64,000 bases of DNA, from NCBI GenBank assembly GCA_016390365.1, contig GCA_016390365.1_3043.1; one strand, written 5' to 3'. Source of the DNA: a phage. The notes below the pieces were generated by a model that was not told the origin of the DNA, did not search any database, and was given only the letters and a program-made list of their open reading frames with translations. Below, one piece after another: positions 10,352 through 58,282 of the stretch (position 1 is its first letter; each line of letters starts with the position of its first letter). The position numbers and the translations under genes are program-made.

Positions 10352-10381
10352 GTTTACTTTTCCTCTTGACTGTGGTATAAT
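10352..10381 (+). promoter_or_regulatory. early promoter
   Basis: -35 GTTTAC 10352-10357, 18 nt spacer, extended -10 TGTGGTATAAT. Confidence 0.6.
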
Positions 10382-10877: not shown

Positions 10878-11423
10878 ATGAGAAAAGCACTACTCGCTGG
10901 TCTATTGGCCATTTCAATGATGGCACATAGCTCCGAGCATACTTTCAGTAATGTCCAACTCGATAACATGCGTTACGCGTATCAATTCGGGGAACAATTT
11001 TCTAAGGATGGAAAATATAAAACACACAAAAATATCCACAAGAGCGGATTAGGTCATATAATGGCTGCCATTTTATGGCAAGAAAGCTCTGGCGGAGTTA
11101 ATTTAAAATCTAAACCAAAGCATCACGCCTACGGAATGTTCCAAAATTATTTGCCTACTATGCGAGCAAGAGTTAAGGAACTTGGTTATAATATGACCGA
11201 TGCTGAAATAAAAAGAATGTTGAATAAACGGTCCAATTCAGCTTCCTGGGCGTACATTGAACTTTCTTATTGGTTAAATATACATAAGGGCGATATAAGA
11301 AAAGCAATATCCTCTTATAATTCGGGATGGAATGTTAAAGCAGGTTCTAAATATGCTTCTGAAGTCCTAGAAAAGGCTAATTACCTTAAAAATAATAAAC
11401 TTTTGGAAATAGTAAATGACTAA
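10878..11423 (+). CDS. secreted lytic-transglycosylase-like protein
   Basis: Signal peptide MRKALLAGLLAISMMAHS; SLT-like motifs WQESSGG...GMFQ and SYNSGWN. Confidence 0.5.
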   Translation: MRKALLAGLLAISMMAHSSEHTFSNVQLDNMRYAYQFGEQFSKDGKYKTHKNIHKSGLGHIMAAILWQESSGGVNLKSKPKHHAYGMFQNYLPTMRARVKELGYNMTDAEIKRMLNKRSNSASWAYIELSYWLNIHKGDIRKAISSYNSGWNVKAGSKYASEVLEKANYLKNNKLLEIVND

Positions 11424-11757
11424 AATTTTGGTTTTATGTATAGGATTAATTTCATTTTCTGCGTTAGCAGATACATCATATACTGAAATTAGAGAGTATG
11501 TAAACCGTACTGCAGCGGATTATTGCGGGAAAAATAAAGCATGCCAAGCTGAATTTGCACAGAAATTAATATATGCATATAAAGACGGAGAAAGAGATAA
11601 ATCAAGCAGATACAAAAATGATACATTGTTAAAACGATATGCTAAAAAGTGGAATACCTTAGAATGTTCAGTTGCGGAGGAAAAAGATAAAGCCGCTTGT
11701 CATTCAATGGTTGACCGTTTGGTAGATTCTTATAATCGAGGATTGAGTACTAGATGA
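11416..11757 (+). CDS. secreted Cys-containing hypothetical protein
   Basis: Signal peptide MTKILVLCIGLISFSALA; four Cys. Confidence 0.5.
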   Translation: MTKILVLCIGLISFSALADTSYTEIREYVNRTAADYCGKNKACQAEFAQKLIYAYKDGERDKSSRYKNDTLLKRYAKKWNTLECSVAEEKDKAACHSMVDRLVDSYNRGLSTR

Positions 11758-12233
11758 TTGTAAAATATATCAAGGGCGATATTGTCGCCCTATTTCTTCA
11801 AGGTAATATTATTGCGCACGGGTGCAATTGTTTTCATACTATGGGTTCAGGTGTAGCGGGTCAATTAGCCAGAGCCTATCCCAAAATTTTAGAAATAGAT
11901 AAAACCACTACTGAGTACGGTTCTCGCGATAAATTAGGCGATATGTCTATTGTTTTTAAACATAAACCTAATGGTTTTGGCATATGTTATAACTTGTATA
12001 CGCAATACGAACCAGGTCCTAATCTTGATTATGGTGCTTTAGTAAACTGCATGATAGAATTAAATCTACAGGCAGAAACCCTTTTGTTTAAACCAGTAAT
12101 TTACATTCCACGCATAGGTTGTGGTATTGCTGGCGGCGATTGGGATAAGGTTTCTAAATTAATCGACATGTTTACTCCTGATATTGATTTAATAGTGGTG
12201 GATTATGAAAGTACATTACCCACATCCGTTTGA
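11754..12233 (+). CDS. macro-domain protein, TARG1/DarG-like, putative ADP-ribosyl hydrolase
   Basis: YIKGDIV...HGCNCFHTMGSGVAGQLA and RIGCGIAGGDWDKV match macro-domain nucleotide-binding loops. Confidence 0.6.
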   Translation: MIVKYIKGDIVALFLQGNIIAHGCNCFHTMGSGVAGQLARAYPKILEIDKTTTEYGSRDKLGDMSIVFKHKPNGFGICYNLYTQYEPGPNLDYGALVNCMIELNLQAETLLFKPVIYIPRIGCGIAGGDWDKVSKLIDMFTPDIDLIVVDYESTLPTSV

Positions 12234-12417
12234 TCCTAAAAACAAAGTGGAAATTATTCGTCAATGGGAACGCATTTGCCGTACTAAATGTCCAATTAAT
12301 AGTCCACATGATGTAGATAAAGACTACATTGGAACATTCGTTGAATATACCTTTATTGATAAGAAAGGTCGTAAACAACATGTAGAAGAATATTGCTTAA
12401 AGGTTACATGGTTATGA
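12205..12417 (+). CDS. hypothetical protein
   Basis: Track ORF; overlaps the macro gene by 29 nt. Confidence 0.4.
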   Translation: MKVHYPHPFDPKNKVEIIRQWERICRTKCPINSPHDVDKDYIGTFVEYTFIDKKGRKQHVEEYCLKVTWL

Positions 12418-12620
12418 GCCAAACTAGTATTCTTAAAAATGCCCACTGTGAAAAGTGTAAGTGGCCTGTTGTTTTTGCTTTATGTAATGATGAAATGGCT
12501 TGTGATTTCGATTATTGGTGCTATTGTTCTAATAAAGGATGCATCAATCATAAAGGTGAAGGATTTTATTCAGGATTTTATCCTTATCCTGATTTCGTTA
12601 AAGAAGGTAAACCGAAATGA
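12393..12620 (+). CDS. Cys-rich putative zinc-binding small protein
   Basis: CEKCKW...C...C...CYCSNKGC pattern; start may be ATG 12414. Confidence 0.45.
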   Translation: MLKGYMVMSQTSILKNAHCEKCKWPVVFALCNDEMACDFDYWCYCSNKGCINHKGEGFYSGFYPYPDFVKEGKPK

Positions 12621-12790
12621 ATAGTTTTGAGTTACAATATGAAGTGTTACGTGAGCTTGATAATTTAATTGAACTCGCTGTCAATAAAGGTTTTGCCATT
12701 GGAATCGGTCAAAAAGATACTGGTCATTTAACTATGGAAATATTTAAGCAAAAGCGAATTATTTTAAAACTCCTGGAAATTAATATATGA
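12617..12790 (+). CDS. hypothetical small protein (57 aa)
   Basis: ATG overlaps previous stop. Confidence 0.4.
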   Translation: MNSFELQYEVLRELDNLIELAVNKGFAIGIGQKDTGHLTMEIFKQKRIILKLLEINI

Positions 12791-12972
12791 GTCTGAGTAA
12801 AGAACAAAAAGATAAATTGTTTGAGCTTATCCATGAACTTCTAGATGAGCATACAGAAGCAAACACCTTTTATGATGAATACGGCCCGCTATCTCCCGAT
12901 CAGCAAGAAGAATTTGCTGATCGGTTTGATAAGAAAGAAAACGAATTAATAGCTTATGTGAATATGCTTTAA
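12787..12972 (+). CDS. hypothetical acidic small protein
   Basis: Track ORF; ATGA overlap. Confidence 0.5.
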   Translation: MSLSKEQKDKLFELIHELLDEHTEANTFYDEYGPLSPDQQEEFADRFDKKENELIAYVNML

Positions 12973-14511: not shown

Positions 14512-14535
14512 AGTCTCCTTCGGGAGACTTTTTTC
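14512..14535 (+). terminator. intrinsic terminator
   Basis: AGTCTCC-TTCG-GGAGACT then T6. Confidence 0.7.
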
Positions 14536-51231: not shown

Positions 51232-51864
51232 ATGATTTATTATATGCACAAAAATCCACCGTTTAAATACGGTAAATTTCCTGATGCACAATGTTATAAT
51301 ATAACGCCTGATGAAAATAACCGTGGATATCTTATTGGCACAATTTTTGTAATTGTTAAAGATAACGAAATCGTTGCCTGGGCAGATTTTAAAGGTACAA
51401 CATATGATGTTAATCCGGTGCCTTTCACATATTACAATTTAATGGATTTGGCATACGATTATAATTGGTTTAATCATGATACTTTGGCTCATATTGAAGG
51501 TGTAGGATTTGATATTTCATATTCGGAATACACTTTAAGCCCTATGAGTCGAGCCCATAAAGAACCTGAATATTTTTCATTTAGGAAACGTGTAAACTTT
51601 AAACGCAGCACAGAGTATGTCGGTGGAATTTTTGTTAAAGATAATCGAATTATTCGTATTAATTATCCTTTGAGCGTTAGTCAAAAAGATATTGATGTTG
51701 ATTTAGATTTCACTGAAAATAATATTAATAATATTGCTTCTGTGTATTTTGGTATCGATCACAAAATTGTAATATGTGGATATGAATTACCGTTTGAAGA
51801 ACAGCCTAAAGTAAAAGTTTCTATTGACGATCAAATTTTTAATGCTTTTATGAATAAAGGTTAA
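51232..51864 (+). CDS. hypothetical protein (T4 61.2 position)
   Basis: Track ORF; C-terminus SIDDQIFNAFMNKG. Confidence 0.55.
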   Translation: MIYYMHKNPPFKYGKFPDAQCYNITPDENNRGYLIGTIFVIVKDNEIVAWADFKGTTYDVNPVPFTYYNLMDLAYDYNWFNHDTLAHIEGVGFDISYSEYTLSPMSRAHKEPEYFSFRKRVNFKRSTEYVGGIFVKDNRIIRINYPLSVSQKDIDVDLDFTENNINNIASVYFGIDHKIVICGYELPFEEQPKVKVSIDDQIFNAFMNKG

Positions 51865-51865
51865 T

Positions 51866-52222
51866 ATGTATAGTTCTGAATTTTCATATTTAAAAATGGA
51901 AAAAATTTCATACGATTTTATAGATGAAAAGGTTTATTACAGTTTCCATGAACCGCGTTTTAATAGTGAGGTTGGGTTTATTGTAGTAAAAGACAATTTC
52001 ATTTTAAAGATATATTCGGCATTAAAGGATTTTCACTACGAAAATATTAACCTAAAATTTGATAAAGAAAACGTTCGTAATTGTGCAGTAACAATTACAG
52101 GAAATAAAGGTGCATGTGTTATGCTATCTGATGAAATTAATGATTTGCTAAATGATGCAGAAAATATTACTGCGCCATCTATTGATGACCAAATTTTTAA
52201 TGCTTTTATGAATAGAGGTTAA
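51866..52222 (+). CDS. hypothetical protein (T4 61.1 position)
   Basis: Track ORF; C-terminus SIDDQIFNAFMNRG. Confidence 0.55.
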   Translation: MYSSEFSYLKMEKISYDFIDEKVYYSFHEPRFNSEVGFIVVKDNFILKIYSALKDFHYENINLKFDKENVRNCAVTITGNKGACVMLSDEINDLLNDAENITAPSIDDQIFNAFMNRG

Positions 52223-57063: not shown

Positions 57064-57675
57064 ATGATTATTAATCTTGCAGATGTTGAACAGTTATCTA
57101 TAAAAGCTGAAAGCGTTGATTTTCAATATGATATGTATAAAAAAGTCTGTGAAAAATTTACTGACTTTGAGCAATCTGTTCTTTGGCAATGTATGGAAGC
57201 TAAAAAGAATGAAGCTCTTCATAGGCAGTTGAATAAAATCATTAAAAAGCATTTAACTAAATCACCTTATCAGCTATATCGTGGTATATCAAAATCAACA
57301 GAAGAACTTATTAAAGATTTACAAGTCGGAGAAGTGTTTTCAACGAACAGGGTAGATTCATTTACTACTAGTTTGCACATAGCATGTGGTTTTTCTTATG
57401 TGTATTTCACTGAAATAATATTTCGCTTAAAAACTAATAAAGCTTTTAATTATTCTGACCATATCAGCGATATTATACTTTCTTCTCCTAATACTGAGTT
57501 TAAGTACACGTATGAAGATACTGATGGATTAGATTCAGAGCGTACTGATAACTTAATGATGATTGTGCGTGAACAAGAATGGATGATTCCAATTGGAAAG
57601 TATAGAATAACTTCATTTCAAAAGAAAAATTACACGATTCATTTGGAACATTTAAAGTTTATGATATTGAGGTAG
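57064..57675 (+). CDS. modB: ADP-ribosyltransferase, ModB-like
   Basis: 203 aa; R-S-E triad candidates YRG, SFTTS, EQEWMIP; paralog of next gene. Confidence 0.6.
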   Translation: MIINLADVEQLSIKAESVDFQYDMYKKVCEKFTDFEQSVLWQCMEAKKNEALHRQLNKIIKKHLTKSPYQLYRGISKSTEELIKDLQVGEVFSTNRVDSFTTSLHIACGFSYVYFTEIIFRLKTNKAFNYSDHISDIILSSPNTEFKYTYEDTDGLDSERTDNLMMIVREQEWMIPIGKYRITSFQKKNYTIHLEHLKFMILR

Positions 57676-57679
57676 TTGA

Positions 57680-58282
57680 ATGAAATACTCAGTAATGCAA
57701 CTAAAAGATTTTAAAATAAAATCAATGGATGCATCGGTGCGTGCTTCTATTCGTGAAGAATTACTTTCTGAAGGATTTAATTTATCTGAAATTGAACTTT
57801 TAATTCATTGTATTACCAACAAACCAGATGACCATACTTGGTTAAATGAAATAATCAAATCTCGTTTGGAACCAAACGATAAACCTCTTTGGAGAGGTGT
57901 TCCAGCTGAGACTAAGCAAGTATTAAATCAAGGAATTGATATTATTACATTTGATAAAGTAGTATCAGCTTCATATGATAAAAATATAGCTCTGCATTTT
58001 GCTTCTGGTTTAGAGTATAACACACAAGTTATTTTTGAATTCAAAGCTCCTATGGTATTCAATTTCCAGGAGTATGCTATAAAAGCTCTACGCTGTAAAG
58101 AATACAATCCAAACTTTAAGTTTCCAGATAGCCATCGTTATCGTAATATGGAATTAGTTTCAGATGAACAAGAAGTAATGATACCAGCTGGAAGTGTATT
58201 TAGAATTGCAGATAGATATGAGTACAAAAAGTATTCAACATACACTATCTATACTCTTGATTTTGAAGGATTTAATCTATAA
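57680..58282 (+). CDS. modA: ADP-ribosyltransferase, ModA-like
   Basis: 200 aa; LWRGVP, VSASYD, EQEVMIP. Confidence 0.6.
   Translation: MKYSVMQLKDFKIKSMDASVRASIREELLSEGFNLSEIELLIHCITNKPDDHTWLNEIIKSRLEPNDKPLWRGVPAETKQVLNQGIDIITFDKVVSASYDKNIALHFASGLEYNTQVIFEFKAPMVFNFQEYAIKALRCKEYNPNFKFPDSHRYRNMELVSDEQEVMIPAGSVFRIADRYEYKKYSTYTIYTLDFEGFNL

What the first reader, a model, noticed from the sequence alone, without database searches (positions are those of the whole stretch)
11754..12233. TARG1/DarG-like macro-domain protein: candidate eraser of ADP-ribosylation
The 159-aa protein has the two nucleotide-binding loops of a macro domain (GDIV...GNIIAHGCNCFHTMGSGVAGQLA and RIGCGIAGGDWDKV), closest in pattern to the TARG1/DarG branch. 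In bacteria DarG reverses DarT ADP-ribosylation of DNA, and DarTG acts as an anti-phage system, so a phage-borne macro domain of this type is a plausible counter-defence. It could instead tune the phage's own ADP-ribosyltransferases encoded at 57064-58282.
Basis: partly seen in the sequence, partly recalled or inferred. Interest (0 to 1): 0.6.

Follow-up and report, generated by a model that had tools for sequence, protein, structure and literature searches.

The report
Phage macrodomain that undoes DNA ADP-ribosylation
This gene is a diverged copy of phage T4's tk.4 (recently renamed adfM), a small macrodomain enzyme that lets T-even phages grow on bacteria armed with the DarTG2 defence, most likely by removing ADP-ribose from phage DNA, so the finding is correct but already known.

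Summary
The ORF at 11754-12233 (+) is real: 159 aa, Pfam Macro above threshold, and a confident macrodomain model whose best structural matches are Bt_1257, DarG, Poa1p and TARG1.

The window is a T4-like phage (Tequatrovirus). The gene sits exactly where T4 tk.4 sits, in the order regB, vs.1, vs, tk.4, tk.3 and, after two or three small ORFs, tk.

A 2025 preprint reports tk.4 as the only T4 gene needed on a DarTG2 host. A clean knockout sensitises T4, and the authors renamed the gene adfM.

Two refinements are new here:
- **Active site.** The catalytic Lys of DarG (K80) and TARG1 (K84) is replaced by a Gln that is invariant in 259 of 259 relatives. TARG1 Asp125 is Ala. This matches Streptomyces SCO6735, whose Gln85 is essential and which hydrolyses ADP-ribosyl-thymidine DNA. 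The phage clade lacks SCO6735's five-residue longer mobile loop.
- **Mosaic allele.** The protein is only 57% identical to T4 Tk.4, while flanking proteins are 93-100% identical. This is an old allele brought in by recombination.

Activity of this allele is inferred, not tested. Interest is low.

The parts
11754..12233 (+). tk.4/adfM orthologue: 159-aa single-domain macrodomain protein (stop codon included)
11817..11852 (+). Substrate-binding loop, residues H22-G33 (HGCNCFHTMGSG). It contains His22, Gly23 and Asn25, the equivalents of SCO6735 His24, Val25 and Asn27.
   Evidence: H22, G23, N25 and C26 are invariant in the 61-sequence alignment and near-invariant in 259 relatives. Equivalence to SCO6735 comes from the alignments. 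The SCO6735 N27S mutant is almost inactive.
12003..12005 (+). Codon CAA for Gln84, at the position of the catalytic Lys of DarG (K80) and TARG1 (K84) and of the essential Gln85 of SCO6735
   Evidence: Alignments. Gln is present in 120/120 and 139/139 relatives. SCO6735 Q85A and Q85E are inactive. The codon was read from the sequence.
12108..12143 (+). Phosphate-binding loop, residues P119-W130 (PRIGCGIAGGDW). Gly122 and Gly124 are equivalent to SCO6735 Gly126 and Gly128. Ala126 sits at the TARG1 Asp125 position.
   Evidence: Invariant columns. SCO6735 G128E has reduced activity. T4's loop differs (PRIGAGIGKGNW), and the window allele is closer to the family consensus.
11870..12250 (+). Diverged mosaic segment: about 40-73% nucleotide identity to T4, inside flanks that are 97-100% identical. 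Approximate recombination boundaries lie inside tk.4 and at the start of tk.3.
   Evidence: Sliding identity and dS 1.32 against 0.01-0.44 in neighbouring genes. Per-gene protein identities.
10353..10381 (+). Sigma-70-like promoter match (TTTACT-17-TATAAT with TG) upstream of regB. It is a candidate start of the regB-vs-tk.4-tk-rI transcription unit.
   Evidence: Consensus scan only. The number of promoter-like sites in the region does not exceed shuffles, so this is weak.
14512..14529 (+). Terminator-like hairpin after rI.-1, the likely end of the same-strand gene run that contains tk.4
   Evidence: Scan. The equivalent site is annotated as a terminator in phage R5505.

Best explanation
The gene encodes the T-even phage counter-defence enzyme Tk.4/AdfM. 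It is a free-standing macrodomain made from the same-strand regB-vs-tk gene run, which lies in the region known from T4 as early/middle. When the host DarT2 toxin ADP-ribosylates thymidines in single-stranded phage DNA, the protein binds the ADP-ribose between its substrate-binding loop (H22-G33) and its phosphate-binding loop (P119-W130). It then hydrolyses the ribose-thymine bond, releasing ADP-ribose and restoring replicable DNA. It acts as an orphan antitoxin in place of DarG. Catalysis is of the SCO6735 type: Gln84, held by Asn25, positions the distal ribose and a water molecule does the chemistry. There is no catalytic lysine as in DarG or TARG1. What is shown: the macro fold, the active-site residues, orthology to tk.4, the genetic requirement of T4 tk.4 on a DarTG2 host (literature), and the activity of a Gln-type relative (literature). 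What is inferred: that this 57%-identical allele has the same activity, and that hydrolysis rather than toxin binding is the main mode.
For: The fold and class are established. The gene is the positional orthologue of T4 tk.4, with flanking proteins 93-100% identical. T4 tk.4 was the single significant hit on a DarTG2 host, and a clean knockout was sensitised. T2 and T4 lacking adfN, and T4 lacking both adfA and adfN, remain DarTG2-resistant, which implied a further factor. Gln84, Asn25, His22, Gly122 and Gly124 are invariant or nearly so in 259 relatives. They match SCO6735 residues whose mutation abolishes or reduces ADPr-thymidine hydrolysis, and SCO6735 rescues E. coli from DarT. SCO6735 activity on T-ADPr and U-ADPr was confirmed independently. 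The window allele's phosphate-binding loop (GCGIAGG) is closer to the family and SCO6735 consensus than T4's own. dN/dS of 0.29 indicates the diverged allele is under purifying selection.
Against: No biochemical data were found for any Tk.4-family protein; the preprint itself only infers hydrolysis. This allele is only 57% identical to the tested T4/T2 allele. The SCO6735 DNA-contact lysines are not conserved: K34 is Ser32, and K89 lies in a five-residue loop insertion that is absent here. The protein is acidic, with a predicted pI of 5.25, which is unusual for a DNA-binding surface. The T4 genetic evidence comes from a preprint and one DarTG2 system.
Confidence: 0.8

Rival explanations
1. The protein neutralises DarT2 mainly without catalysis, by binding the toxin or its DNA product (interaction-inhibition), as described for catalytically dead DarG and SCO6735 in vitro.
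For: The catalytically inactive mutant SCO6735 Q85A still inhibits DarT in vitro, more strongly than DarG K80A or TARG1 K84A. Other phage anti-DarT factors, AdfA and AdfB, came from escape mutants, and AdfB is described in its paper's title as an antitoxin mimic. No hydrolysis has been shown for Tk.4.
Against: The whole set of ligand-binding and catalytic positions is invariant across 259 relatives, as expected for an enzyme. The protein lacks the C-terminal DarT-binding domain of DarG; the NCBIfam DarG model covers only positions 2-142 of 338.
Confidence: 0.1
2. It reverses or tunes ADP-ribosylation (or RNAylation) laid down by the phage's own transferases ModA and ModB (57064-58282) or Alt.
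For: ModB (57064-57675) and ModA (57680-58282) are present in the same window. A writer plus an eraser in one genome is a natural pairing.
Against: The T4 transferases modify arginine, for example RNA polymerase alpha Arg265 and MazF Arg84. From established knowledge, arginine-linked ADP-ribose is removed by ARH/DraG-type enzymes, not by this macrodomain class. ModA/ModB homologues occur in 933 phage records, almost all from phages of enterobacteria, whereas the macrodomain occurs in 2,854 records that include Pseudomonas, Vibrio, Acinetobacter, Aeromonas and Bacillus phages. Insertions in tk.4 were depleted specifically in the presence of DarTG2, so the gene is dispensable on the control host.
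Confidence: 0.04
3. It is a metabolic ADP-ribose-1''-phosphate phosphatase or O-acetyl-ADP-ribose deacetylase. This is the legacy 'phosphatase / A1pp' annotation.
Against: The label derives only from a domain match. Poa1p has Ser, not Gln, at the key position, and carries a 21-residue insertion that is absent here. The NCBIfam O-acetyl-ADP-ribose deacetylase model scores 16.5 bits against a cut-off of 291. The only phenotype known for the orthologue is DarTG2 sensitivity.
Confidence: 0.03
4. Its main or additional target is ADP-ribosylated RNA (for example uridine-linked) made by another host defence transferase.
For: SCO6735, DarG and TARG1 also remove ADP-ribose from uracil in RNA, and SCO6735 and TARG1 do so more efficiently than DarG. 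RNA-targeting defence transferases exist, for example CmdTAC (listing).
Against: No such uridine-modifying defence system is known in the E. coli host. CmdTAC gives robust defence against T-even phages even though they carry tk.4 (abstract). Nothing here tests this.
Confidence: 0.08

Closest known systems
T4 Tk.4 = AdfM (anti-DarT factor Macrodomain), bioRxiv 10.1101/2025.11.20.689424
   Same: Same genomic slot between vs and tk.3, same size and same single macro domain. It has the same invariant H-G-C-N-C, N-x-Y-T-Q and P-R-I-G-x-G motifs.
   Different: Only 57% identical. The first 47 residues are 85% identical and the rest 21-69% by segment. The phosphate-binding loop is GCGIAGGD here against GAGIGKGN in T4. 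This allele has four extra C-terminal residues and a 29-nt overlap with tk.3. The DarTG2 phenotype was tested only for the T4 allele, which T2 shares exactly.
Streptomyces coelicolor SCO6735 and Bacteroides Bt_1257 (Gln-type ALC1-like macrodomains; PDB 5E3B, 2FG1/2AFC)
   Different: The phage clade lacks the five-residue longer 'mobile loop' with Lys89/Lys93-94 that defines that subclass: 8 residues against 13-14. It has Ser/Ala instead of Lys34. It carries its own invariant residues Cys26, Asp49 and Tyr82. Identity is about 26-28%.
DarG / DarG2 antitoxin macrodomain (PDB 5M3I, 5M31/5M3E)
   Different: Catalytic Lys80 is Gln here. There is no C-terminal DarT-binding domain and no adjacent darT. 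The NCBIfam DarG equivalog model scores 27.8 bits against a cut-off of 250.
Human TARG1 / OARD1 (PDB 4J5R/4J5S)
   Same: Best Foldseek hit (E 4.5e-10, TM 0.72-0.82). The PRIGCG phosphate-binding loop is the same. TARG1 also removes ADPr from thymidine.
   Different: Neither residue of the Lys84/Asp125 catalytic dyad is present: Gln84 and Ala126.
PhiKZ gp104, also named AdfM (Cell Rep 2026, PMC13309987)
   Same: A phage-encoded stand-alone macrodomain that counters DarTG2. It was shown to remove ADP-ribose from TNTC DNA.
   Different: The PhiKZ protein is DarG2-like with putative active-site residues Asn23 and Lys78 (Lys-type), and it is imported into the phage nucleus. The T-even protein is Gln-type. 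Two different macrodomain branches now carry one name.
AdfN (T4 gp30.3), NADAR-type orphan antitoxin
   Same: Same logic: a phage carries a free-standing copy of the antitoxin-type hydrolase to erase DarT marks from its DNA.
   Different: It has an unrelated fold (NADAR), acts on ADPr-guanosine made by DarT1, and does not protect against DarTG2.

Membership tests
Macro domain (Pfam PF01661) | Profile match above the curated gathering score | tested here: met
   33.1 bits against a cut-off of 22, E 6.2e-8, covering profile positions 2-117 of 118.
Macro domain (Pfam PF01661) | Three-layer alpha/beta/alpha macro fold | tested here: met
ALC1-like (TARG1/DarG) macrodomain class | Closest structural and sequence neighbours are members of the class | tested here: met
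T4 Tk.4 / AdfM | Orthologous genomic position (regB, vs.1, vs, tk.4, tk.3, then small ORFs and tk) | tested here: met
   Gene order is identical. Flanking proteins are 93-100% identical to T4.
T4 Tk.4 / AdfM | Required for growth on a DarTG2-expressing host | not testable with these tools
   Shown only for the T4 allele in the preprint. T2 carries the identical T4 allele, so no phenotype exists for the window-type allele.
SCO6735/Bt_1257 Gln-type subclass | Gln in place of the catalytic Lys, held by a conserved Asn | tested here: met
   Gln84 and Asn25 align with SCO6735 Gln85 and Asn27. Both are present in every one of the 259 relatives that covers the position: Gln in 259/259, Asn in 257 plus 2 gaps.
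SCO6735/Bt_1257 Gln-type subclass | Mobile loop five residues longer than in DarG/TARG1, carrying Lys89 and Lys93/94 | tested here: not met
   The loop between Gln84 and Tyr93 is 8 residues, as in DarG and TARG1, against 13-14 in SCO6735 and Bt_1257.
DarG antitoxin (NCBIfam NF048014 equivalog) | Score above the equivalog cut-off, i.e. macrodomain plus C-terminal DarT-binding domain | tested here: not met
   27.8 bits against a cut-off of 250. Only model positions 2-142 of 338 are matched.
DarG antitoxin (NCBIfam NF048014 equivalog) | Catalytic Lys80 | tested here: not met
   It aligns to Gln84.
DarG antitoxin (NCBIfam NF048014 equivalog) | Encoded next to a darT toxin gene | tested here: not met
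   The neighbours are vs and tk.3. The one bacterial relative examined (Pelagimonas) has no darT nearby either.
TARG1 | Lys84/Asp125 catalytic dyad | tested here: not met
   Gln84 and Ala126 occupy these positions.
Poa1p-type ADP-ribose-1''-phosphate phosphatase | Sequence features of Poa1p around the active site | tested here: inconclusive
   It shares the H-x-C-N-C motif, but Poa1p has Ser at the Gln84 position and a 21-residue insertion. Enzyme activity cannot be tested here.

The most novel reading that the evidence does not exclude
The window-type and T4-type tk.4 alleles may be functionally distinct counter-defence variants. They are 57% identical and were swapped by recombination inside otherwise near-identical genomes. 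They differ in the phosphate-binding loop and in most of the C-terminal two-thirds of the protein. They could have different spectra, for example against different DarT2 homologues or against ADP-ribosylated RNA. In that case tk.4, like the also-diverged adfA in this window, would be an exchangeable specificity cassette in the arms race with DarT toxins. The Gln-type, short-loop phage clade would then be a third mechanistic branch beside DarG/TARG1 and SCO6735.
Probability: 0.15. Interest if true: 0.45.

Novelty: already known. Interest (0 to 1): 0.2.

Why it matters
DarTG systems stop phages by ADP-ribosylating their DNA, and T-even phages carry layered erasers against them: AdfA, AdfN and now Tk.4/AdfM. 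This window confirms that picture rather than extending it. Two points are useful to add. First, the T-even enzyme is a Gln-type macrodomain like SCO6735, not a Lys-type one like DarG or PhiKZ AdfM. Mutants designed on the DarG model (a Lys mutant) would therefore be wrong, and Gln84 and Asn25 are the residues to mutate. Second, natural T-even phages carry at least two deeply diverged alleles at this locus, which gives a ready-made test of allele-specific counter-defence.

Tried and rejected
- **DarG or TARG1 membership.** Rejected. The catalytic Lys (and the TARG1 Asp) is absent, the DarG equivalog score is far below its cut-off, and there is no DarT-binding domain.
- **Full membership of the SCO6735/Bt_1257 subclass.** Rejected, because the defining long mobile loop is missing.
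- **Legacy 'phosphatase' function.** Judged unlikely.
- **Tuning of ModA/ModB.** Judged unlikely from the linkage chemistry and the wider distribution of the macrodomain.
- **Positive selection as the cause of the 57% identity.** Rejected. dS is saturated (1.32) and dN/dS is 0.29, so this is an old allele imported by recombination, not fast recent change.
- **Origin from a DarT-linked antitoxin.** The one chromosomal bacterial relative examined has no darT nearby. This is too little to decide.
- **Hairpin at 11773-11791.** The terminator scan flagged it, but it lies in the coding sequence for the conserved KGDIVAL motif and is identical in T4, so there is no covariation to judge it. It was not pursued.
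- **Phenotype for the window-type allele from T2.** T2 carries the exact T4 allele, so this gave nothing.
- **LeRoux et al. 2022 (PMC9250638).** The paper could not be read.

Full report
**Observation.** The ORF at 11754-12233 on the + strand is real and encodes 159 aa. Its ATG overlaps the stop of the upstream gene as ATGA. The protein passes the Pfam Macro gathering score (33.1 bits against 22, E 6.2e-8) and matches PHROG 335 at E 1.4e-71. An AlphaFold2 model built on a 61-sequence alignment is confident, with mean pLDDT 94.5 and pTM 0.89.

**Identity of the gene.**
- The window is a T4-like phage. The DNA of this gene matches 567 phage records, almost all Tequatrovirus.
- The local gene order is regB, vs.1 (SLT), vs, this ORF, tk.3 (DUF7202), three small ORFs, tk, rI.1, rI, rI.-1. 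T4 has the same order, with two small ORFs (tk.2, tk.1) before tk, and the gene in this slot is tk.4, annotated 'phosphatase; contains A1pp phosphatase motif'.
- The A1pp/macro assignment for tk.4 orthologues dates back at least to 2006.

**What is already known.** A preprint (HIDEN-SEQ, 10.1101/2025.11.20.689424) screened a T4 transposon library on E. coli expressing DarTG2.
- It found tk.4 as the single significant hit.
- A clean knockout made T4 sensitive to DarTG2.
- The authors renamed the gene adfM, for anti-DarT factor Macrodomain.
- They infer, but do not show, enzymatic removal of ADP-ribose from DNA.

This fits earlier work in which T2 and T4 lacking adfN, and T4 lacking adfA and adfN, stayed resistant to DarTG2.

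**Refinement 1: the active site is not of the DarG/TARG1 type.**
- The catalytic Lys of DarG (K80) and TARG1 (K84) aligns with Gln84 in three independent alignments: MAFFT, a HMMER profile against PDB sequences, and hmmalign. TARG1 Asp125 aligns with Ala126. The reference sequences I supplied were checked against PDB entries.
- Gln84 is present in 120 of 120 close homologues and in 139 of 139 further 50%-cluster representatives. The positions H22, G23, N25, C26, D49, N80, Y82, G122 and G124 are invariant or nearly so.
- Among solved relatives, only SCO6735 and Bt_1257 have this Gln. Poa1p has Ser.
- For SCO6735, Gln85Ala and Gln85Glu abolish activity, Asn27Ser nearly does, and Gly128Glu reduces it. 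The enzyme removes ADP-ribose from DarT-modified thymidine but not from guanosine. It rescues E. coli from DarT. A water-mediated mechanism was proposed. Later work confirmed its T-ADPr activity and added U-ADPr (RNA) activity.
- The window protein conserves the equivalents of His24, Asn27, Gln85, Gly126 and Gly128.
- It does not have SCO6735's five-residue longer mobile loop with Lys89/Lys93-94, which that paper treats as the hallmark of the subclass. Its loop is 8 residues, as in DarG and TARG1. Lys34 is Ser.
- The phage clade is therefore a Gln-type, short-loop branch with its own invariant Cys26, Asp49 and Tyr82.
- It fails the NCBIfam DarG equivalog (27.8 bits against 250) and has no DarT-binding domain.
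- A chimallivirus protein also named AdfM (PhiKZ gp104) is DarG2-like with putative active-site residues Asn23 and Lys78, and it was shown to de-ADP-ribosylate TNTC DNA. One name now covers two branches.

**Refinement 2: a mosaic allele.**
- Against T4, the neighbouring proteins are 99.3% (RegB), 100% (Vs.1), 97.4% (Vs), 92.9% (Tk.3), 99.0% (Tk) and 100% (rI.1) identical. This protein is 57.4% identical.
- Nucleotide identity is about 1.0 through vs.1 and vs. It is still 82-92% in the first ~130 nt of tk.4, falls mostly to 0.4-0.6 from about 11870 to 12250, and returns to 0.97-1.0 inside tk.3.
- dS is 1.32, against 0.01-0.44 in neighbouring genes. dN/dS is 0.29, against 0.04-0.07 where it could be computed. 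This is an old, still-constrained allele brought in by recombination, not recent rapid change.
- Across phage records, protein identity is bimodal: 319 records at >= 90%, and then a T4-type group near 57%.
- T2 carries exactly the T4 allele, so no published phenotype covers the window-type allele.
- The window allele's phosphate-binding loop (GCGIAGG) is closer to the family and SCO6735 consensus than T4's (GAGIGKG). This argues that it is functional.

**Distribution.** Homologues occur in 2,854 of 50,697 phage records, across phages of Escherichia, Klebsiella, Salmonella, Pseudomonas, Vibrio, Acinetobacter, Aeromonas and Bacillus. The profile finds 1,157 50%-identity clusters at E <= 1e-30 and 9,156 at <= 1e-10. 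One bacterial relative is a stand-alone chromosomal gene with no darT nearby. Another relative lies on a 110-kb phage contig near an Acb5 gene.

**Mechanism proposed.** The protein is expressed from the same-strand run that begins near regB and ends at the terminator after rI.-1 (weak evidence). It binds ADP-ribose attached to thymidine in single-stranded phage DNA and hydrolyses the linkage with Gln84 and Asn25 positioning the ribose. This replaces the host antitoxin DarG during infection. My confidence is about 0.8. The untested steps are the activity of this allele and the choice between hydrolysis and toxin binding. Catalytically dead SCO6735 can still inhibit DarT in vitro, so non-enzymatic inhibition is the main rival.

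**Other rivals.**
- **Tuning the phage's own ModA/ModB.** These genes are confirmed at 57064-58282. The idea is unlikely because those enzymes modify arginine. They also occur in only 933 records, almost all from phages of enterobacteria, against 2,854 records for the macrodomain.
- **The legacy phosphatase or deacetylase reading.** It rests only on a domain label.

**Verdict.** The function is already known for the T4 orthologue. The active-site type and the mosaic allele are modest additions.

Noticed in passing
window 51232-51864 and 51866-52222: The homologue of T4 gp61.2 (AdfA, another anti-DarT factor) is only 72.9% identical to T4, while its neighbours sp, 61.4 and dmd are 94-98% identical. 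A second, shorter 61.2-like ORF follows in tandem (35% identity to T4 gp61.2 over 103 aa) and ends with the same C-terminal motif, SIDDQIFNAFMN(K/R)G. Both anti-DarT loci in this window are therefore unusually diverged.
   Followed up: partly
window 57064-57675, around 57610-57680: ModB is 92% identical to T4 over 189 aa. The last 22 residues of T4 ModB are encoded perfectly in a different frame (57615-57680), next to an A-rich run. This ModB therefore has a frameshifted C-terminus, or the sequence has a homopolymer error. The EQEW motif lies upstream and is intact.
   Followed up: partly
window 12414-12972: The stretch between tk.3 and tk differs from T4. It holds a Phage_zn_bind ORF (12414-12620) and two small ORFs (12617-12790, 12787-12972). 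Only the last ORF is related to T4 Tk.2, at 54%. T2 also carries extra ORFs here. This is a second mosaic patch directly downstream of the diverged tk.4.
   Followed up: partly
window 12205-12233: tk.4 overlaps the start of tk.3 by 29 nt, against 4 nt in T4. The reason is that this allele has four extra C-terminal codons. The junction coincides with the downstream recombination boundary.
   Followed up: partly
window 11773-11791: An 8-bp GC-rich hairpin (AGGGCGATATTGTCGCCCT) with a T-rich tail lies inside the 5' coding region of tk.4 and was flagged as terminator-like. It encodes the conserved KGDIVAL motif and is identical in T4, so it may be incidental.
   Followed up: partly
window 11416-11757 (vs): The gene immediately upstream, vs (valyl-tRNA synthetase modifier), is reported in the same preprint as the most strongly depleted T4 gene in minimal glucose medium. 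It overlaps tk.4 by ATGA, which suggests translational coupling.
   Followed up: no
L005 1541-1888 and 6001-6447 (110-kb phage contig): A 43%-identical relative of the macrodomain lies about 4 kb downstream of an Acb5 (anti-CBASS) gene and near a PolyA_pol-type nucleotidyltransferase. This hints at clustering of counter-defence genes.
   Followed up: no
phage records MW398869.1 (15646-16074) and ON922990.1 (92310-92474): In two Vibrio phages the macrodomain match lies next to a ribose-phosphate pyrophosphokinase gene. This may link ADP-ribose removal to nucleotide or NAD salvage.
   Followed up: no
literature (PMC13309987 and 10.1101/2025.11.20.689424): The name AdfM has been given independently to two different macrodomain branches: PhiKZ gp104 (Lys-type, DarG2-like) and T4 Tk.4 (Gln-type, SCO6735-like).
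   Followed up: yes
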